Origin: Chiloscyllium plagiosum
Lineage: Eukaryota
DNA length: 20,000 nucleotides
Assembly: GCF_004010195.1 (NCBI RefSeq)
Contig: NC_057749.1
Span: forward strand, 17,430,326-17,450,325
Direction of reading: 5' to 3'
In this document: positions 1,354 through 18,732 of the stretch, in pieces
Layout: each line of letters starts with the position of its first letter
Numbering within the stretch: the stretch's first letter is position 1
The notes under the pieces: model-generated
Database searches by the model: none
Seen by the model: the letters and a program-made list of their open reading frames with translations, nothing else
Told to the model about the DNA's origin: nothing
Translations under genes and position numbers: made by a program

Positions 1354-1592
1354 GTAAGTGTGAAACTCTACAATCAAATCTAAGGTTCTCATGGACAAAG
1401 CAGCAAAATTGATTCTCAAGGAAACTGGGTGGATGCAACAAGCTGAAAAATAACATCAGAGATTCACATCTGCATAAAATTTATGGAATGAGACGTTTCC
1501 CTATCTACATTGGAGGGCCTCCATTAAATGGGTTTTGGCAAAGACAGCCTATTTCTAACTGGACAGAGGCAGGCTTGGCAGAAATAGAAAAG

Positions 1593-1802
1593 AGGTAAAA
1601 ACAATGACTGCAGATGCTGGAAACCAGATTCTGGATTAGTGGTGCTGGAAGAGCACAGCAGTTCAGGCAGCATCCAAGGAGCAGCGAAATCGATGTTTCG
1701 AGCAAAAGCCCTATTCCTGATGAAGGGCTTTTGCCCAAAACATCGATTTCGAAGATCCTTGGATGCTGCCTGAACTGCTGTGCTCTTCCAGCACCACTAA
1801 TC
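1593..1802. mobile_element. Penelope-derived fold-back mini-element with 14-bp TSD
   Basis: Inverted arms 1629-1712 and 1724-1807 (84 bp, a few mismatches), 11-nt loop. Direct repeat CAGAAATAGAAAAG at 1579-1592 and 1803-1816. Homologous to the Penelope terminus at 9975-10091. Confidence 0.88.
1713..1748 (+). ncRNA. Degenerate minimal hammerhead ribozyme motif
   Basis: ATTC-CTGATGA-A-GGGC-TTTT-GCCC-AAAAC-ATC-GATT. The conserved GAAA is changed to AAAA (1737) and GTC to ATC (1742), both consistent with CpG decay. Confidence 0.7.
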
Positions 1803-2090
1803 CAGAAATAGAAAAGGTTTGCAGTGCACCTTTTATTGTTTATAAGGAAGCTTGTTGCTTGGGGAGAATGAAGAAATCTTTATTTAGTAATTAACCGGTA
1901 TACTTATGTCAGAGTCATGAATGCCAGTGCTTGAGTGTGATTTTGAAAGGGTTCCATTAGTATCCCAAGTAACCTTGTTATGCTCAAAATTTGCAAATTT
2001 TATTTTAACTAAGACTCTTCCTCTGTAAGTTAACGATGTCTTACATTCATACTTAAAGGAATATTTTATCTTTTTGCTTTACCTTTTCAG

Positions 2091-9948: not shown

Positions 9949-10055
9949 AAATTAGTTGAGACAGTTTTGATTCAGGGAGAAAGTGCGCACTGCAGATGTT
10001 GAGAGTGTGGTGCTAGAAAAGCACAGTCGATCAGGCAGCATCCGAGGAGCAGGAG

Positions 10056-10091
10056 AATCAGCGTTTCAAGCATAAGCCCTTCATCAAGAAT
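10056..10091 (-). ncRNA. Degenerate hammerhead ribozyme motif in the Penelope 3' terminal repeat
   Basis: Minus strand ATTC-TTGATGA-A-GGGC-TTAT-GCTT-GAAAC-GCT-GATT; core C3 and the cleavage triplet are mutated. Confidence 0.7.
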
Positions 10092-10125
10092 GGGGCTTGT
10101 GGGCCAAGGAGGCTGTGAGATAAAT

Positions 10126-10142
10126 GGGGGGGGGGGGGGGGG
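10126..10142 (+). repeat. G17 homopolymer inside the Penelope 3' region
   Basis: 17 consecutive G. Confidence 0.9.
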
Positions 10143-12588
10143 TCCAAGTTGGAAGGTTGGATCTGGAATGAGGTGGAAGGAGGGGATATGAGGAAACTGG
10201 TGAAATCCACATTGATGCCATGTGGTTGGAGGGTCCCATGGCAGAAGATGAGGCATTCTTCCTCTAGGCATTGGGTGGTAAAGGTTTGGTGGTGGAGGCG
10301 GCCCAGGACCTGAATGTCCTTGGGGGAGTGGGAGAGGGAGTAAAAGTGTACACCCACAGGCGGTGCGGTTGTTTGCTACATGTGTCCTGGAGGTGTTCTC
10401 TGAAGCGTTCCTCAAGTACCTGTCCTGCCTCAAAAATGTAGAGGAGACCACATTGCGAGCAATGGATACAGTAAATGACGTGTGGAAGTGCAGGTAAATC
10501 TCTGACAGATGTGGAAGGCTCCTTTGGGACCTCGGATGGAGGTAAGGGGAAGGTGCTGGGTGGGGGGGTGTTGGTGAAGGGCGTGGACCTGACGAGAGTC
10601 ACGAAGGGAATGGCCTTTACGGAACGTGGATAGGGGTGGGGAGGGAAATATATTCCTGGCAATGGGGTCTGTCTGTAGGTGGCGGAAATGCCGGAGGATG
10701 ATGCGATGCATCTGGAGGTTGGTGGAGTGGAAGGTGAGGACCAGGGGAGTGCTCTCCTTGTTGCAGCTGGAGGGTGGAGTTTAAGGGCGGAGGTGCAGGA
10801 AGTGGAGGAGATGTACTGGAGGGCATCGTCGGCCATGTGGGAGGGGAAATTGCGGTCTTTGAAGAAGGAGATTATCTGGTCTGTTCGTTGGTGGAATTGG
10901 TCCTCCTGGGAGCAGGTGCAGTGGAGGCAGTTGAATTGGGAATAAGGGGGTAGTGTTTTGACAGGAGGCATGGTGGGAGGAGGTGTAGTCCAGGTAGCTC
11001 TGGGAATCGATGGGTTTGTAGTAGATGTCCGTGTTGAGTTGGTCACCATTAATGGAGATGGAGAGGTCCAGGAAGGGGAGGGAGGTTTCAGAGATGGTCT
11101 AGGTGAACTTATGATCGGGGTGGAATGTGCTGGTGAAGTTGATGAACTGTTCCAATGTCCTCGTGGTGCTGATACAGTCATCGATGTAGCAGAGGAAAAG
11201 TTGGAGAATGGCGCCGGTGTAGCTGCGGAAGATGGACTGTTCCATGTACCTGACGAAGAGATAGGCATAGCTGGGGTACATGCTACCCCGGTGATCTGGA
11301 TGAAGTGGGAGGATTCAAAGGAGAAATTACTGTGGGTGAGGACCAGTTCAGCCAAACTAACAAGAGTGTCAGTGGAAGGGTACTGGTGGGGATGATGGGG
11401 GAAGAAGGAATGGAGGGCTTGGAGGCCTTCATCATGACAGATAGATGTGAATAGGGACTAGATGTCCATGGTGAAGATGTGGCATTGGGGGCTGGGGAAA
11501 TGAAAGTCATGGAGGAGGTGGAGGGAGTGGGTGGTGTCTCGAACATAGGTGGAGAGTTCCTGGACCAGGGGGGATATGACTGTTTCAAGGTATGTGGAGA
11601 TGAATTTGGTGGGGTAGGAGCAGGCCAAGACGACGGGTCGGCTGGGGCAGTCATGTTTGTGACTTTTGGCGTAGGAGGTAGAACCGGCCGTGTGGGGTTC
11701 CCAGACTGAGGTTTGGAGGCTGTGGGTGGCAGATCCCTTGAGGTGATGAGGTTGTGTATGGTCTGGGAGATGATAGTTTGGTGATGGGAGATGAGGTCAT
11801 GATCAAGCGGTCTGTAGGTGGAGGTGTCTGCAAGTTGGTGCCTGGCTTCAGCAGTGTAGAGGTCAGTGCGCAAACTACCAATGCTGCCAGGACATTGACT
11901 GCCTCAACTTGTCGTCCTTTGCTGCAATAGTTTATCAGTTCAGCCCTAGATCTTTTCTTGTTTTAGAATGTTTTTCTTTTAAGGCTTTTAATTTTTCTGA
12001 CTTTCCAGTTGGAAAGAGAGGGGGGGTTTGGGAGAGATGGATGCTTTCTGCCTTCAGGCTATTTTTTCTGTTCTTTGCTGCCTTTGATTCTTAATCTTTT
12101 TAACAGTACAGCTCAATTGGACAGGGTTGTTGTCAGGCAGAATTTTTTTATAAGCTGAAATGACATGGTGCCATTCAGTCTCAGATTCTTGCACTCACTG
12201 CTTCAAACAACAGCATAAAATCTCAGCTCAAAAAATACGCAGCACCTGATTTTTTTTTTAAGTTCTACAACACTTCTATTTCAGTCCAACTTGCAATTTC
12301 ACTTTATATTTCCTAAAATAAAAAGTATGTGGTCTCTACACAAGATAATTATTAGGACCTATGGCTAGTTTGTTGCTTTCCTCCCTATCTCCAAACATTG
12401 AGACTAATTATGATAATTCTACTGCTGGTTAACTCTACAATTGAAGATGAAAGCTGGGACCTTCCATTGTTTATTATTCAATTCATACTGGACATTACAT
12501 TTTGCTGGCTGAGACATTTGAGGGATTATGGGGGCACTAATTACTCTAGGCTACCATAGCTTTACACAGTCTTCTGTTTGATGTACAG

Positions 12589-12781
12589 TATGACCCCGAG
12601 TTATCATCTCGGCAGTTCGGAGTGGAGGTCTCCAGACTTACCAATGATGAGAGGTCAGTTCCATTGGTGGTGGAGAAACTGATCAACTACATTGAAATGC
12701 ATGGCTTGTATACTGAAGGAATCTATAGGAAGTCTGGATCAACCAACAAAATCAAGGAGCTCAAGCAGGGCCTGGACACAG
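12589..12781 (+). CDS. MYO9A: MYO9A exon, start of RhoGAP domain: [64 protein letters not shown]
   Basis: tacAG acceptor; G|GTAAGG donor; 193 nt, phase 0-1; EGIYRKSG arginine-finger motif (Arg codon AGG 12727-12729). Confidence 0.96.
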
Positions 12782-13222
12782 GTAAGGAAGGCTCCCAAAC
12801 TGGGTACTTTGACAGATTCCACCGGTAGGTTGGAATCTGTTCTGCAGTTCAAAGTGTCACCTTAACATATGTATGCTTAAAACTGAATCAAACAAAATTT
12901 AAGAGTGCAATGAGTAATTCTATCCTAGAGTTTTATAAATACTATGAAGGGCGATAACAAATGTTTTGATGAGATGGGGTGCACTTTTTATGTCATTGCT
13001 TGGTTAAAATTCAATAACATTCCACATTAAGATACTATGTGGATTACAGGTTCAAAAACGTTTACTATTTGTGTGACATACAGGCTTTGCTTTTGGGTGT
13101 CCACATGTCAAAAATATACTTTTAAAATGTGGGATGTAGATGATTCTCATTTCCATATGGAAGCCTTTTAAAACTGCTTGCTATTTCTTTGTTTCTGGGC
13201 TGACTGGGATTTCTTCTTGCAG

Positions 13223-13351
13223 ATATTAACAGCATGAATCTGGATGAGTATAACATTCATGTCATTGCCAGTGTTTTCAAACAGTGGTTGAGGGACCTCC
13301 CTAATCCTTTGATGACGTTTGAACTCTATGATGAGGTTCTGCGAGCAATGG
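13223..13351 (+). CDS. MYO9A: MYO9A RhoGAP exon: (D)INSMNLDEYNIHVIASVFKQWLRDLPNPLMTFELYDEVLRAM
   Basis: ttcttcttgcAG acceptor; G|GTAAGC donor; 129 nt, phase 1-1; K-x-W-L-R-D-L-P-x-P-L RhoGAP motif. Confidence 0.96.
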
Positions 13352-13550
13352 GTAAGCGGGAGTTGTATCCATTCAATTATTTGTGAATCATAGAAATGGA
13401 TTCAGTCATTTTAGTAACATGCAAACGAGATGAAGAAAACAAAGAATTCAGCTTTTGGCTGGCATTTTCTAGTAATATCATATGTAGCTGCTGTGATCAA
13501 TTTTCTGTGTAAGCAATGAACTGTGTGTTTTTGGCCGAATGTAAAATATC

Positions 13551-15348
13551 ATTGAGTTTTTTGAAGAAGTAACAAAAAGGATTGAAGGCTTAGCTGTGGA
13601 CGTTATCTGTATCGACTTCAGTAAGGCGTTCGACAAGGTTCCTCAAGATAGACTGCTTAGCAAGGTTCGGTCACACAGAACAGAAGGAGAACCAGCTATT
13701 TAGATACAGAACTGGCTCAAAGGTAGAAGACGGAGTGGTGGAGGATTGCTTTTCAGATTGGAGGCCTGTGACCAGTGGTGTGCCACAAGGATTGGTGCTG
13801 AGTCTGTTGCTTTCCATCATTTATATAAATGATTTGGATGTGAACATAGGAGGTATGGTCAGTAAGTTTGCAGGTGACACCACAATTGGTGGTGTAGTGG
13901 ACAGGAAAGAAGGTTACCTCAGAGTTTAACCGGACTGTGATCGGATGGGCCAATGCGCCGATGAGTGGGGCAGATGGAGTTTAATTTAGATAAATGTGAG
14001 ATGCTGCATTTTGGAAAGGCAAATCAGGGCAGAACTTATACACTTAATGGTAAGGTCCTGGAGATTACTGCTGAACAAAGAGACCTTGGAGTGCAGGTTC
14101 ATAGCTCTTTCAAAGTGGAGTTGCAGGTAGATGGGATAATGAAGAAAATGTTTGGTATACTTGCCTTTATTGGTCAGTGCATTGAATAAAGGAGTTGGGA
14201 GGTCTTGTGGCTTTACAGAACATTGGTTAGGCCACTATTGGAATATTGCATGCAATTCTGGTCTCCCTGCTCAAGGAAGGATGTTGTGAAACTTGAAAGT
14301 ATTCAAAAAATATTTTCAAGGATCTTCCCAGATTAGGAGGGTTTGAACTTTAGGGAGAGGCTGAATAGGTTTGGCTATTTTCCCTGGAGCGCCAGAGGCT
14401 GAGGGGCGACCTTATAGAGGTTTAGGTCAGTAAGTTTGCAGGTGACACCACAATTGGTGGTGTAGTGGACAGGAAAGAAGGTTACCTCAGAGTTTAACCG
14501 GACTGTGATCGGATGGGCCAATGCGCCGATGAGTGGGGCAGATGGAGTTTAATTTAGATAAATGTGAGATGCTGCATTTTGGAAAGGCAAATCAGGGCAG
14601 AACTTATACACTTAATGGTAAGGTCCTGGCGATTACTGCTGAACAAAGAGACCTTGGAGTGCAGGTTCATAGCTCTTTCAAAGTGGAGTTGCAGGTAGAT
14701 GGGATAATGAAGAAAACGTTTGGTATACTTGCCTTTATTGGTCAGTGCATTGAATAAAGGAGTTGGGAGGTCTTGTGGCTTTACAGAACATTGGTTAGGC
14801 CACTATTGGAATATTGCATGCAATTCTGGTCTCCCTGCTCAAGGAAGGATGTTGTGAAACTTGAAAGTATTCAAAAAATATTTTCAAGGATCTTCCCAGA
14901 TTAGGAGGGTTTGAACTTTAGGGAGAGGCTGAATAGGTTTGGCTATTTTCCCTGGAGCGCCAGAGGCTGAGGGGCGACCTTATAGAGGTTTATAAGATCA
15001 TGAGGGGCATGGATGGGATAAATAGCCATGGTCTTTTCCGCAGGGTGTGGGAGACTAAAACTAGAGGGCATAGGTTTAAGGTGAGAGGGGAAAGATTTAA
15101 AAGGGATCTAAGAAGTGCCTTTTTCACTCAGAGGGTGATGCATGTACAGAATGAGCTGCCAGAGGAAGTGGTGAAGGCTGGTACAATTACAACTTTTAGA
15201 AGGCATCTGCTTGTTTGTATGAATAGAGATGGTTTAGTGGGATGTGGGCCAAGTGCTGGAAAATGGGACTATATTAATTTAGGATATTTGGTTGGCATGG
15301 ATGAGTTGGACCCTAGGGTCTAGTTCCATGCTGTCTATTTTGATTCTT
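13551..15348 (+). mobile_element. CR1 LINE (RT C-terminal half + 3' tail), dead, with an internal tandem duplication
   Basis: DFSKAFDKVP, TSGVPQGLVL, YINDLD, SKFAGDT, MEFNLDKC, HRFKVRGERFKRDLR and a 3' tail; in-frame stops. Confidence 0.93.
13857..14992 (+). repeat. Tandem direct duplication, 2 x 568 bp (13857-14424 / 14425-14992)
   Basis: Copies look identical by eye except 14062 A vs 14630 C and 14149 T vs 14717 C; the ORFs at 13965 and 14533 are offset by 568. Confidence 0.95.
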
Positions 15349-16995: not shown

Positions 16996-17259
16996 TGCAT
17001 GCTGATGGGAATTTTAACTCATTTTCATCTCTGTGCTGAGCCTAATTTTAACAACCCTACTACTCCATTAGCTAATTAACTGATTCATTGAAGAACAAGA
17101 ATGCTACTTTGAGCCTTCTTGCTCTATATGATTAAACATTTTAAAAAGTAAATGATATTGATCAGAGTTACAGATTAGCATTCAGTCTTGATATAATTTT
17201 CCACCCCATTATTGAATTGTGCGTTTTGATGAGATAAAAATTACTTTGTATAATTGCAG

Positions 17260-17365
17260 GTCTCCCAGACAGAAAGGAAATAATTAGAGGTGTGTATTCC
17301 ATAATTGATCAGTTGTCTCGAACTCACATCAACACACTTGAACGGCTCATCTTTCATCTTGTAAG
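17260..17365 (+). CDS. MYO9A: MYO9A RhoGAP exon: (G)LPDRKEIIRGVYSIIDQLSRTHINTLERLIFHLV
   Basis: ttgcAG acceptor; AG|GTAAAT donor; 106 nt, phase 1-2. Confidence 0.95.
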
Positions 17366-17633
17366 GTAAATATTTGACTGATATGCATTAGATTTTTAAG
17401 TGTAGTTCTGCAGCAGAAGATTGATCAATTTGCACTTTACCATTTTCTTCATGGTTAAGGGTAAACATTATGTTGGCATTTTAAGTTCTAGATTCAGTTC
17501 ATGCTGGTTATGGGGAAGATTTCATTAAAGGAAAAATGATCCACATCAGAGCAAGAGCATTTTGTCTGAAGTTCTGTCAGACCATTTGTTCTCATCCATA
17601 CTAAATGTTATTGCTTTTCCATTCCTTCACCTG

Positions 17634-17850
17634 TTGAAACTTTATTGCTGGAACAGCACAGCAGGTCAGGCAGCATCCAGGGAACAGGAGATTCGACGTT
17701 TCGGGCACAGGCCCTTCTTCAGGAATGAGGGCCTGTGCCCGAAACGTCGAATCTCCTGTTCCCTGGATGCTGCCTGACCTGCTGTGCTGTTCCAGCAATA
17801 AAGTTTCAACTTTGATCTCCAGCATCTGCAGACCTCACTTTCTCCTCGAA
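17634..17850. mobile_element. Penelope-derived fold-back mini-element with perfect 83-bp arms and 14-bp TSD
   Basis: 17633-17715 is the exact reverse complement of 17728-17810 (12-nt loop). TSD CATTCCTTCACCTG at 17620-17633 and 17851-17864. The tail 'cagcatctgcagacctcactttctcc' matches the Penelope 3' terminus at 9976-10000. Confidence 0.92.
17691..17726 (-). ncRNA. Minimal type I hammerhead ribozyme (Penelope-type), intact core
   Basis: Minus strand AUUC-CUGAAGA-A-GGGC-CUGU-GCCC-GAAAC-GUC-GAAU: stem I AUUC/GAAU, CUGANGA core, stem II GGGC/GCCC, GAAA, palindromic ACGU stem III, GUC cleavage triplet. Confidence 0.82.
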
Positions 17851-18275
17851 CATTCCTTCACCTGGTTGTTTCTAAAATTAATCTACTACCTTGGCCTCAA
17901 GACACTTTAGCAATTGATCATTCAGTTGTTTAACTGTTTTATTATTTCCAACTTCACCCTTTTTAGAAGGTTAGAGTTCTGCTTTGACCTTGTGTACTGA
18001 GCATTGTGCATTGGTAACAGAAAAGTATTTGCCAAATGTAGTTGGTAAGAATACTTTTCATAAATCATAATTATGATTTTTTTGTCAAACTTGCAGCTTA
18101 ACCATCATAAATGTGCAAAAGGTACATCTTGTATATGAAGATTTCCCCACTGCTAGGACTATAGCAAGACCTTCTGTGTATTCCCAGCATATTTTTTTTA
18201 TATTTGCAGAGTTGACAGGTTATCATTGTTTCTCTCTACTCCCTCATTCACCCAACTTAATTGCTGCATTTCCAG

Positions 18276-18407
18276 AATTGCACTACAAGAAGAAACCAAC
18301 CGGATGTCTTCAAATGCACTGGCTATTGTCTTTGCTCCATGTATTCTTCGATGTCCGGACACCACTGACCCATTACAAAGCGTACAAGATATTTCAAAAA
18401 CCACTGC
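18276..18407 (+). CDS. MYO9A: MYO9A RhoGAP exon: (R)[43 protein letters not shown]
   Basis: tttccAG acceptor; GC|GTAAGG donor; 132 nt, phase 2-2; N-x-M-x3-A-L-A-I-V-F-A-P RhoGAP motif. Confidence 0.96.
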
Positions 18408-18732
18408 GTAAGGATGCTTTTGTTTCTTAATGACATTTCCGACACTTTCTAATAAAAAGTCATAGTGGTACAATACTGGGATGGTGAAAGCAGATTTTGG
18501 AGTTTTTATTGTAACAATTGCACAAGTTGACCCATTATGCTGGTAGCTTATGTAGTGCTATCTTTTTGAAATCCCATGTCAGGCAGATTGTTCCTGGATT
18601 CATCTATGAAAATAACTGCCAGTTTTACCAGTGTCTTAATGTTTATTACATCAAGTAATTCAAATGTGTACAATTCATTTTTAAATACGAAAAATGTGAT
18701 GAAGTCTAGTGCAAATAAGCGACCCTTCCTTT

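What the first reader, a model, noticed from the sequence alone, without database searches (positions are those of the whole stretch)
17620..17864. Young fold-back mini-retroelement carrying an intact hammerhead ribozyme
Seen: a 217-bp insert between 14-bp TSDs, made of perfect 83-bp inverted arms, a 12-nt loop and a ~40-nt tail matching the 3' terminus of the Penelope element at 9975. The minus strand of 17691-17726 reads AUUC CUGAAGA A GGGC CUGU GCCC GAAAC GUC GAAU, a complete minimal hammerhead with predicted cleavage between 17695 and 17694. Known: Penelope-like elements carry minimal hammerheads with a short palindromic stem III that are thought to cleave as dimers; an extra A after A9 is a known tolerated variant. 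Inference: this MITE look-alike is a non-coding, ribozyme-bearing Penelope derivative. Its long hairpin would sequester the ribozyme in a full-length transcript, giving two mutually exclusive folds.
Basis: partly seen in the sequence, partly recalled or inferred. Interest (0 to 1): 0.8.

Follow-up and report, generated by a model that had tools for sequence, protein, structure and literature searches.

The report
Fold-back insertion of Penelope retroelement end
This is a real, recent insertion made of two head-to-head copies of the tail end of a Penelope-like jumping gene, one of thousands in this shark-like genome, and its hammerhead ribozyme motif is the family's ordinary one, kept here by chance on one arm only.

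Summary
A 217-bp insert sits between perfect 14-bp target-site duplications. It has 83-bp perfect inverted arms, a 12-nt centre and a 40-nt one-sided tail. A complete minimal hammerhead lies on the minus strand at 17691-17726.

A related species has the empty site with a single copy of the duplication, so the insertion is young.

The reading as a self-propagating, MITE-like mini-retroelement is not supported. The insert is the 3'-terminal module of a very abundant, young Penelope-like element (PLE) family encoding RT and GIY-YIG. The arm-tail junction 32-mer occurs 10,509 times in this genome.

In a position-based sample, 19 of 37 copies are fold-backs, with many different centre junctions. 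The outer end of the inverted arm lies at or near one element position, +89/90 in 11 of 19. In 24 head-to-head pairs, 23 carry exactly one tail.

This is the known PLE insertion architecture: an inverted 5'-truncated copy plus a one-sided tail. It fits the two reverse-transcription start sites and two-strand priming shown in vitro.

In this copy the tail-bearing arm is truncated inside the ribozyme. The ribozyme therefore survives only on the inverted arm, antisense to the host RhoGAP intron, and is buried in a hairpin of about -180 kcal/mol.

Verdict: a new member of a known kind. Earlier scans found head-to-head PLE ends on other DNA.

The parts
17620..17633 (.). Left copy of the 14-bp target-site duplication, CATTCCTTCACCTG. 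Its last G could equally be element position +89.
   Evidence: A single copy is present at the empty site of organism B.
17634..17727 (-). Inverted, tail-less, 5'-truncated copy of the PLE 3' module. It reads on the minus strand, from element position -5 to +88 relative to C3 of the hammerhead box.
   Evidence: Its outer end, TTGAAAC..., lies at the same element position in all 30 best-matching copies.
17691..17726 (-). Complete minimal (type I, no loop 3) hammerhead motif. It has helix I AUUC/GAAU, the CUGAAGA box, a bulged A, helix II GGGC-CUGU-GCCC, GAAA, the ACGU palindrome and a GUC cleavage triplet. The predicted cut is between 17695 and 17694.
   Evidence: Sequence. Descriptor: 1 hit in the window and 0 in 1000 shuffles. 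The isolated 46-nt segment folds as helix I plus helix II at -7.7 kcal/mol. No Rfam hammerhead hit.
17716..17727 (.). Centre of the fold-back, where the two copies are joined head to head. This is the only variable part among copies.
   Evidence: This exact junction occurs 21 times in the genome.
17728..17810 (+). Direct copy of the PLE 3' module. It is truncated inside the hammerhead: it starts at the bulged A, position +7, and so lacks CUGAAGA.
17811..17850 (+). 40-nt tail, present on this side only. Its last bases vary between copies.
   Evidence: One tail per fold-back in 23 of 24 pairs.
17851..17864 (.). Right copy of the target-site duplication.
1593..1804 (-). Older fold-back of a related subfamily, about 78% similar. 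Its tail is on the minus strand, its arms are 90.6% alike, and its TSD GAAATAGAAAAG lies at 1581-1592 and 1805-1816. Its hammerhead is decayed (GAAA to AAAA).
9975..11960 (-). Decayed, frameshifted PLE copy. Its 3' end carries a mutated hammerhead, arm and tail. Limits are approximate.
   Evidence: RVT_1 E 0.057. One search shows thousands of relatives.

Best explanation
The 217-bp insert is the product of one integration event of a Penelope-like element (PLE, RT plus GIY-YIG). It is not a separate element.

**Shown**
- It consists of two head-to-head copies of the PLE's last ~130 nt (hammerhead, 88-nt 'arm', 40-nt tail) between a 14-bp TSD.
- The site is empty in a related species.
- Thousands of sister insertions exist, about half of them fold-backs with their own centre junctions.

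**Inferred mechanism**
1. The PLE endonuclease cuts both DNA strands with a stagger of about 9-17 bp.
2. Each 3' end primes reverse transcription at one of two start sites 40 nt apart on the template RNA. One end starts at the tail end (+128) and the other at the tail-less site (+89).
3. Both cDNAs run to an RNA 5' end that lies at the first bases of the hammerhead (about -4).
4. The two cDNA 3' ends are joined, by template jump or microhomology, and filled in. This gives inverted arm, junction, direct arm and tail.

Whether each arm keeps the CUGANGA box depends on a few bases lost at the junction. Here only the inverted arm kept it. The ribozyme motif is therefore a passenger in this copy. 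It lies antisense to the host RhoGAP intron transcript and is locked in an 88-bp hairpin in any transcript that spans both arms.
For: **Single insertion, young**
- Perfect 14-bp TSD and arms identical at 83 of 83 positions.
- Organism B contigs join 17619 directly to 17851. Their flanks differ at 13 letters over 320+349 aligned bases.
- A second sample of organism A runs from both flanks into the element with 0 differences.

**PLE origin**
- L077 carries the same hammerhead-arm-tail directly behind an ORF with a CX4CXXC linker and a GIY-YIG motif (Pfam PF01541, E 4e-4).
- Among its longer relatives, 30 of 120 listed carry GIY-YIG and 19 of 120 carry RVT_1 plus GIY-YIG. The best named hits are from carpet sharks.

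**Abundance**
- Arm-tail 32-mer: 10,509 exact copies.
- Arm-end 24-mer: 19,796 copies.

**Fold-backs made anew at integration**
- The sample is all 38 arm-tail hits in the first 11.66 Mb of contig C1; 37 are readable.
- 19 are fold-backs, 14 are simple short copies, 3 extend upstream and 1 is tandem.
- Centre junctions differ from copy to copy. Counts are 21, 40 and 304 for three junction types.
- The inverted arm's outer end is at +89/90 in 11 of 19, and within +89 to +96 in 14 of 19.
- All 30 best-matching copies end at the same position.

**Coupling of the two start sites**
- Among 100 arm ends in 17.7 Mb there are 24 head-to-head pairs: 23 with exactly one tail, 1 with none, 0 with two.
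- There are 0 tail-to-tail pairs.
- Unpaired ends split 32 with tail and 20 without.
- By my own arithmetic, at least 23 of 24 under independent choice at p=0.5 is about 1.5e-6.

**Common RNA 5' end**
- 24 of 37 tail-bearing copies start within -8 to +4 of C3.

**Internal initiation**
- L003 runs 31 nt beyond the tail into PLE body before its TSD.
- L085, L097 and L099 show the same continuation.

**Retro-type ends**
- TSDs of 9-17 bp in 28 of 30 copies.
- The tail keeps 0-6 further bases after CACTTTCTC.

**Literature**
- PMC8557442 (passages): PLE insertions often have an inverted 5'-truncated copy and a 30-40-bp tail at one end.
- PMC11167929 (whole Main text): a purified PLE protein cleaves and extends both strands. 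RT starts at two adjacent internal sites that bound the tail. The protein is predicted to be a dimer. The hammerhead is dispensable for insertion in vitro.

**Ribozyme as passenger**
- In the 37-copy sample an intact motif lies on the tail strand in 15, on the inverted arm in 7, on both in 2 and on neither in 17.
- Hairpin -179.2/-184.7 kcal/mol against -7.7 for the motif alone.
- The host gene is on the + strand.
Against: - Steps 1-4 of the mechanism are inferred from end positions only. No intermediate was seen.
- In vitro, no difference in start-site use between the two strands was reported (PMC11167929). The strict one-tail rule therefore needs an extra assumption, such as one dimeric RNP on one RNA.
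- Some junction types recur: 304, 40 and 21 copies. The 78%-diverged old fold-back at 1593-1804 has the same junction type as this one. I attribute this to hot spots but did not test it.
- At least one two-tailed head-to-head pair exists outside the sample (C1 at 31.08 Mb).
- The cause of the common 5' end at the hammerhead's edge is not established.
- Tail calling used exact words, so mutated tails count as tail-less.
Confidence: 0.72

Rival explanations
1. The fold-back is a self-propagating non-autonomous mini-retroelement. A master fold-back is transcribed, its 3' arm and tail are recognised by the PLE enzyme, and the whole hairpin is copied. The ribozyme and hairpin folds act as a switch.
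For: - 40 scored places in the genome match the whole 217 nt at 92-100%.
- The identical centre junction is found 21 times. Other junction types occur 40 and 304 times.
- The same junction type occurs in an old, 78%-diverged copy in the same window.
- The fold-back retains the tail and both RT start sites.
Against: - The hits were ranked by likeness to the query.
- In the position-based sample the 19 fold-backs show many junctions, and none is of the window's type.
- 21 copies is 0.2% of 10,509.
- No arm substitutions mark the junction classes.
- The outer end of the inverted arm lies at the same element position in all 30. A copied transcript would need a transcription start exactly there, or would carry flank.
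- The intact ribozyme is antisense to the strand that carries the tail.
- The hairpin of about -180 kcal/mol leaves no window for the -7.7 kcal/mol ribozyme fold.
Confidence: 0.08
2. Same PLE origin, but the fold-back arises from a single cDNA. That cDNA reaches the RNA 5' end, snaps back on itself and self-primes second-strand synthesis. The one-sided tail comes from endonuclease resolution of the hairpin intermediate.
For: - The commonest junction, GGCCCTTCTTCAGGAAGAAGGGCC (304 copies), is a near-minimal hairpin turn.
- PMC8557442 (passage) attributes the tail to EN-mediated resolution of a transposition intermediate.
- The one-tail rule (23 of 24) is also expected from a single primed end.
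Against: - Self-copying has no reason to stop at +89. That position is an independent RT start site in simple insertions: 20 of 52 unpaired ends are tail-less.
- It corresponds to the second start site mapped in vitro (PMC11167929).
- Asymmetric fold-backs exist in which the tail arm is much shorter than the inverted arm (L088 at +57, L094 at +53). These are awkward for snap-back.
- Both strands are primed in vitro.
Confidence: 0.18
3. A DNA-transposon MITE, or two independent nested insertions.
For: Long terminal inverted repeats flanked by a direct repeat look MITE-like at first sight.
Against: - TSD length varies from 9 to 17 bp, and the 3' end varies by 0-6 nt.
- The structure is asymmetric, with a tail on one side.
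- The same module ends PLE copies behind a GIY-YIG ORF.
- One TSD flanks the whole structure, and the related species lacks all 231 nt at once.
Confidence: 0.01

Closest known systems
Endonuclease-bearing Penelope-like elements (Penelope/Poseidon, Neptune, Nematis clades): insertion architecture with pseudo-LTRs, an adjacent inverted 5'-truncated copy and a 30-40-bp tail at one end (PMC8557442, passages)
   Same: - Inverted 5'-truncated copy next to a direct copy.
- 40-nt tail on one side only.
- Variable TSD and heavy 5' truncation.
- Hammerhead in the terminal repeat.
- RT plus C-terminal GIY-YIG in related ORFs, with a CX4CXXC linker of the Neptune/Nematis type in L077.
   Different: - Here the whole insertion is only 217 bp, with no ORF.
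- The clade was not tested by a tree.
- The strict one-tail rule (23 of 24) and the clustering of inner ends at the hammerhead's 5' edge were measured here. I did not see them stated in the passages I read.
PAc, the Poseidon element of Anolis carolinensis, studied in vitro (PMC11167929, whole Main text)
   Same: - Two RT start sites that bound the tail.
- Initiation internal to the RNA.
- Both DNA strands cleaved and extended.
- Hammerhead about 85-120 nt upstream of the start sites.
- Ribozyme not needed for insertion.
   Different: - In PAc the ORF starts inside the hammerhead. Here the hammerhead lies behind the ORF end.
- PAc targets AT-rich ATT sites. I saw no clear target motif here.
- No strand preference for the start sites was reported in vitro.
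Minimal hammerhead ribozymes (min-HHR) of metazoan PLEs (PMC4209133, parts 1-2 of 4 read)
   Same: - CUGANGA and GAAA boxes.
[quoted passage not shown]
- G10.1-C11.1 pair.
- Palindromic 15.2-16.2 with no loop 3.
- Helix I of 4 bp.
- Thousands of dispersed copies.
- The paper notes pairs of such motifs about 100-700 bp apart on opposite strands.
   Different: - Helix II is 4 bp, whereas the Schistosoma families described there have 7-8 bp.
- Activity is untested. The paper found low activity even as dimers.
Animal non-LTR retrozymes (PMC7229834, search listing and abstract start only; bioRxiv 10.64898/2026.07.22.740005, abstract and passages)
   Same: - Non-coding, hammerhead-bearing and PLE-derived.
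- The same family does form 224-nt tandem units at another locus (L099).
   Different: The window's element is a head-to-head pair, not a tandem. It has one usable cleavage site at most, so it cannot give a unit-length circular RNA.

Membership tests
Minimal hammerhead of PLEs (descriptor-defined, PMC4209133) | Catalytic boxes CUGANGA and GAAA, and a UH cleavage triplet | tested here: met
   CUGAAGA, GAAA and GUC on the minus strand of 17691-17726.
Minimal hammerhead of PLEs (descriptor-defined, PMC4209133) | [quoted passage not shown] | tested here: met
   Bulged A, then GGGC-CUGU-GCCC.
Minimal hammerhead of PLEs (descriptor-defined, PMC4209133) | Palindromic 15.2-16.2 without loop 3 (dimer-forming helix III), and a short helix I of 4-5 bp | tested here: met
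   ACGU palindrome, and helix I AUUC/GAAU of 4 bp.
Minimal hammerhead of PLEs (descriptor-defined, PMC4209133) | Self-cleavage (as a dimer, or protein-assisted) | not testable with these tools
   No assay was possible. The RNA reads showed no pile-up of ends (table 6). That run is poly(A) single-cell data and only about 2% of it was read.
Rfam hammerhead families (type I, II, III, HH9, HH10 models) | Score at or above the family's gathering threshold | tested here: not met
   0 matches at gathering score. No hammerhead among 8 and 13 matches at E<=10. This is expected for a motif without loop 3 and loop 1.
Penelope-like element, endonuclease-bearing | Single ORF with reverse transcriptase and GIY-YIG endonuclease | tested here: inconclusive
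   - The 217-bp insert has no ORF.
- The same 3' module follows an ORF with GIY-YIG in L077 (E 4e-4, 21 bits, below the 22.6 cut-off).
- Of its longer relatives, 19 of 120 listed carry RVT_1 plus GIY-YIG.
- No intact full-length copy with this exact 3' end was recovered.
Penelope-like element, endonuclease-bearing | Insertion architecture: pseudo-LTR or inverted 5'-truncated copy, a 30-40-bp tail at one end, variable TSD | tested here: met
Retrozyme (animal, non-LTR) | Tandem units, each with a hammerhead, able to give unit-length circular RNA | tested here: not met
   The window copy is a head-to-head pair with one intact motif. Tandem 224-nt units exist elsewhere (L099).
MITE / DNA transposon | Symmetric terminal inverted repeats with a TSD of fixed length | tested here: not met
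   TSD of 9-17 bp, a one-sided tail and a ragged 3' end.

The most novel reading that the evidence does not exclude
This genome's roughly 10,000 young insertions record the PLE integration reaction in vivo. One RNP would use both reverse-transcription start sites at once, one per DNA end, which would explain exactly one tail per fold-back. Most insertions would be run-off copies of a ~130-nt stretch between an RNA 5' end at the hammerhead's first bases and the 5'-proximal start module. [quoted passage not shown] A by-product is thousands of perfect 88-bp hairpins in host introns that could feed small-RNA pathways against the element's own 3' module.
Probability: 0.4. Interest if true: 0.6.

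Novelty: new member of a known kind. Interest (0 to 1): 0.35.

Why it matters
**The finding itself**
- It is an ordinary, dead-on-arrival by-product of a known kind of retroelement.
- Its ribozyme motif belongs to an already described class.

**The family behind it**
- How PLEs integrate is still poorly understood.
- This genome offers thousands of near-identical recent insertions. Their ends can be read like a reaction log: two start sites 40 nt apart, one of each per fold-back, and inner ends that pile up at the hammerhead's 5' edge.
- This gives in vivo support to, and a sharper test of, the two-strand, internal-initiation model derived in vitro.

**Possible host effect**
- A perfect 88-bp hairpin newly placed in a 0.9-kb RhoGAP intron, absent in the sister species, is a possible source of small RNAs, editing or splicing effects. 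None of this is shown.

Tried and rejected
- **Rfam.** Searches of the window at gathering score, of 361 nt at E<=10 and of 61 nt at E<=10 gave no hammerhead. They returned only generic miRNA-hairpin look-alikes far below their thresholds.
- **Pfam on the decayed element at 9975-11960.** Nothing at E<=0.01. Only a weak RVT_1 at E 0.057. A 535-aa open frame in L032 also gave nothing.
- **Mis-reconstructed junction string.** I misread one from an alignment and it matched nothing. The true strings were read and counted.
- **Loci for an unbiased sample.** Small regions were fetched instead.
- **Search for the autonomous partner.** The 30 PLE loci found with the old copy's protein have 3' ends only 73-87% like this family. 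The one 90% hit is another fold-back.
- **Dimer energy.** The hammerhead dimer could not be evaluated, because the structure is pseudoknotted for the nested model.
- **Sequencing runs.** No RNA holder was listed for the stretch.
- **Laid RNA run X21.** It gave family reads on both strands. There were none on the adjacent intron flanks (17393-17609, 17858-18200), only about one read deep over 17300-17361 in the upstream exon piece, and no start or end pile-ups. This says nothing firm about this locus.
- **Earlier findings.** The look-up by place returned nothing.
- **Lunse et al. 2017.** The paper on dimeric cleavage is not held. I saw only its citation.
- **Literature on Penelope inverted repeats and siRNA.** Nothing specific appeared in the listing.
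- **Stem II covariation.** Across 30 older PLE 3' ends, stem II is GGGC/GCCC throughout. The changes are one-sided decay, mostly at CpG, and only 4 of 30 keep an intact core by my regex.
Full report

Yes.

- The direct repeat CATTCCTTCACCTG lies at 17620-17633 and 17851-17864.
- Between the two copies, 17633-17720 and 17723-17810 are 88-nt inverted arms, 98% complementary.
- The only two unpaired positions lie next to the centre. This leaves a perfect 83-nt run, 17633-17715 against 17728-17810, and a 12-nt centre, TCTTCAGGAATG.
- The 40 nt at 17811-17850 have no inverted partner.
- The minus strand of 17691-17726 reads ATTC-CTGAAGA-A-GGGC-CTGT-GCCC-GAAA-CG-TC-GAAT. The predicted cut is between 17695 and 17694.
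- I wrote a descriptor from the features that Cervera and de la Pena list for their minimal hammerheads (PMC4209133; I read parts 1-2 of 4). It finds this one site on both strands of the window and none in 1000 shuffles.
- Rfam's hammerhead models do not see the site at any threshold tried. That is expected for a motif lacking loop 3 and a closed helix I, but it is a miss all the same.

**2. It is an insertion, and a young one.**

- Contigs from two runs of a related organism B run from 17300 to 17619 and continue without a break at 17851 (X9 record 16, 3231 nt; X11 record 1, 1235 nt).
- Their flanks differ from the window at 13 letters (X9) over 320+349 aligned bases.
- In a second sample of organism A, contigs run from both unique flanks into the element with no differences (X3 records 8 and 15).
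- The arms are identical and the TSD is perfect.

**3. What family is it?**

- The window holds two relatives.
  - One is an older fold-back at 1593-1804. Its tail is on the other strand, its arms are 90.6% alike and it has a 12-bp TSD.
  - The other is the 3' end of a decayed, frameshifted element on the minus strand that ends at 9975.
- In the window's own 3.56-Gb genome the protein of that decayed copy finds a very large family: 144,386 first-look candidates, 104 scored.
- A copy of the young family (L077) carries the same hammerhead-arm-tail directly behind an ORF that ends in a CX4CXXC linker and a GIY-YIG motif. The Pfam GIY-YIG hit has E 4e-4 and 21 bits, just under the 22.6 cut-off.
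- Longer relatives of that ORF in the public protein collection carry PF26215 in all 120 listed. GIY-YIG appears in 30 of 120, and RVT_1 plus GIY-YIG in 19 of 120. The best named ones are uncharacterised proteins of carpet sharks.
- Reverse transcriptase plus C-terminal GIY-YIG, a hammerhead in the terminal repeat, a tail and inverted partial copies define endonuclease-bearing Penelope-like elements (PMC8557442, passages).
- I did not place the clade by a tree.

**4. A propagating mini-element, or a by-product of integration?**

*The first search looked like a master family.*
- A similarity search returned 40 places matching all 217 nt at 92-100%.
- That ranking favours look-alikes of the query, so I took counts and a position-based sample instead.

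*Genome-wide counts of exact words.*

| Word | Copies |
|---|---|
| Arm-tail junction 32-mer | 10,509 |
| Hammerhead box on the same strand as the tail junction | 5,917 |
| Arm-end 24-mer | 19,796 |
| The window's centre junction | 21 |
| Second junction type | 40 |
| Third junction type | 304 |

*Position-based sample.*
- The sample is all 38 arm-tail hits in the first 11.66 Mb of contig C1. One lies at an assembly gap, leaving 37.
- 19 are fold-backs. 14 are simple short copies. 3 extend upstream into the PLE 3' UTR or ORF. 1 is tandem.
- The fold-backs have many different centre junctions. Only one string recurs, three times. None is of the window's type.
- Among the 30 similarity-ranked copies, 28 readable centres fall into 12 different strings. 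The arms carry no substitutions that mark these classes.

*Fixed outer ends.*
- The outer end of the inverted arm is at element position +89/90 in 11 of 19 sampled fold-backs, and within +89 to +96 in 14 of 19.
- It is at the same position in all 30 ranked copies.
- The direct arm ends with the tail at about +124 to +130.

*TSDs and tail ends.*
- TSDs are exact in 28 of 30 copies and 9-17 bp long.
- The tail's last bases vary: 0-6 further bases are kept after CACTTTCTC.

*One tail per fold-back.*
- Using coordinates only, the first 17.7 Mb of C1 hold 100 arm ends, 55 with a tail and 45 without.
- They form 24 head-to-head pairs. 23 have exactly one tail, 1 has none and none has two.
- There is no tail-to-tail pair.
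- Unpaired ends are 32 with and 20 without a tail.
- If the two ends chose independently, about half of the pairs would be mixed. By my own arithmetic, at least 23 of 24 has a probability near 1.5e-6.
- One two-tailed pair does exist outside the sample (C1 at 31.08 Mb).

*Conclusion for this section.* A fold-back copied from a master would not explain the variety of junctions. It would also not explain the fixed outer end without transduced flank, or the one-tail rule. These features describe the integration reaction.

**5. How it most likely works.**

*What is published.*
- PLE insertions are heavily 5'-truncated. They often have an inverted 5'-truncated copy at the 5' side and a 30-40-bp tail at one end (PMC8557442).
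- In vitro, the Anolis Poseidon protein cleaves and extends both DNA strands.
- It starts reverse transcription at two adjacent sites inside the RNA, whose interval is the tail.
- It is predicted to be a dimer, and it does not need the hammerhead for insertion (PMC11167929, whole Main text).

*What the genomic ends add.*
- The two ends of one insertion use the two different start sites (+89 and about +128).
- 24 of 37 tail-bearing copies begin within -8 to +4 nt of C3 of the hammerhead box. The inner ends of the inverted arms cluster in the same region. The template therefore appears to have a 5' end at about the A of ATTCCTGAAGA.
- The hammerhead cleavage site lies between +27 and +28. Only two sampled copies start near it (L083, L095).
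- L003 continues 31 nt past the tail into PLE body sequence before its TSD. L085, L097 and L099 show the same continuation. The template therefore extended beyond the tail and initiation was internal.

*My model (inferred).*
1. Staggered cuts are made on both strands.
2. One cDNA starts from each start site.
3. Both cDNAs run off at the RNA 5' end.
4. The two cDNA ends are joined, with the loss or addition of a few bases, and filled in.

*The snap-back rival.* It explains the commonest, near-minimal turn. It does not explain why copying stops at +89, or the asymmetric fold-backs (L088, L094).

**6. The ribozyme.**

- The motif meets every sequence feature of the PLE minimal hammerhead.
- The isolated 46-nt segment folds into helix I plus helix II as its minimum-energy structure, at -7.7 kcal/mol.
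- At family level it looks maintained.
  - The young family has an intact core.
  - Its changes lie at the free N7 and in loop 2.
  - Its helix I pairs better than in older subfamilies (GAAU against GAUU).
- There is no two-sided covariation in helix II. Older copies show one-sided decay, mostly at CpG, and only 4 of 30 keep an intact core by my regex.
- In this particular insert the tail-bearing copy begins at the bulged A (+7) and lacks CUGAAGA. Only the inverted copy is complete.
- The same configuration (motif on the inverted arm only) occurs in 5 of 37 sampled copies. The motif lies on the tail strand in 15, on both in 2 and on neither in 17.
- Either full-length transcript folds into the long hairpin, at -179.2 and -184.7 kcal/mol.
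- The element lies in the intron between two + strand RhoGAP exon pieces, 17238-17366 and 18157-18408. Host transcription therefore makes the hairpin strand without the ribozyme.
- I conclude that the ribozyme is a passenger here.
- Published activity of such motifs is low even as dimers (PMC4209133), or protein-assisted (PMC11167929).

**7. Comparison and novelty.**

- The nearest known things are:
  - the PLE insertion architecture;
  - the PAc in vitro system;
  - the min-HHR class, whose authors already noted pairs of motifs on opposite strands about 100-700 bp apart;
  - animal retrozymes.
- The window's element is not a retrozyme, because it is not tandem. The same family does form 224-nt tandem units within one insertion elsewhere (L099).
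- Earlier work in this scan met head-to-head PLE ends in other genomes (e1-2578455, e1-7552376). I did not test those.
- Verdict: a new member of a known kind.
- The quantitative signatures (one tail per fold-back, inner ends at the hammerhead's edge) were not stated in the passages I read. They rest on small samples, exact-word calling and one contig.

**8. Limits.**

- No intact full-length partner with this exact 3' end was recovered.
- The cause of the common 5' end is unknown. TCATTCC resembles an initiator motif, but that is from recall and untested.
- Recurrent junction types, and the shared junction type of the old copy at 1593-1804, are unexplained.
- RNA evidence is uninformative for this locus.
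- Supplementary files of the papers were not consulted. Those of the bioRxiv preprint are closed.

Noticed in passing
window 12550-12828, 13204-13386, 17238-17366, 18157-18408 (+): Four exon pieces of a RhoGAP-domain gene (Pfam PF00620 profile positions 1-47, 47-84, 83-120, 118-148). The fold-back sits in the ~0.9-kb intron between the last two, with its tail strand on the gene strand.
   Followed up: partly
L099 (G000:C1:26521800-26522950), about 154-1005: One insertion between copies of a TSD. It holds 2.5 tandem units of 224 nt at 99% identity, each made of hammerhead-arm-tail plus 89 nt of internally deleted PLE body. A further module lies behind about 150 nt of other PLE sequence. The arrangement is retrozyme-like.
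   Followed up: partly
37 sampled copies, L061-L098; element positions -8 to +4: The 5' ends of 24 of 37 copies pile up at the first bases of the hammerhead (...CTC|ATTCCTGAAGA). They do not pile up at its cleavage site (+27/+28), where only L083 and L095 start nearby. Cause unknown. An RNA 5' end or transcription start is my guess.
   Followed up: partly
window 1581-1816: Older fold-back of a related subfamily. Its TSD is GAAATAGAAAAG, its arms are 90.6% alike and its tail is on the minus strand. It has the same junction type as the young insert: the tail arm starts at the bulged A and the tail-less arm at ATTCC.
   Followed up: partly
L003 (G000:C34:18815337-18818553), oriented copy: A fold-back with the window's junction. 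Its 3' end runs 31 nt beyond the usual tail into PLE body sequence before the 15-bp TSD. This shows that the template extended past the tail.
   Followed up: yes
window 13545-13929 (+): Fragment of another, LINE-like reverse transcriptase (RVT_1, E 2e-4 and 0.0039) in the intron downstream of the second RhoGAP exon piece.
   Followed up: no
window 10125-10140 (minus-strand reading): Run of about 15 C in the 3' UTR of the decayed PLE, about 45 nt upstream of its hammerhead. Just before the hammerhead, CACAAGCCCC is nearly complementary to helix II, giving a small natural hairpin around the CUGAUGA box.
   Followed up: no
window 17641-17857, RNA run X21: Poly(A) single-cell RNA reads of the same species label cover the repeat module on both strands. 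They come from family copies elsewhere: 99% of what was laid runs on into unlike sequence. The adjacent intron flanks have none, the upstream exon piece (17300-17361) about one read.
   Followed up: no
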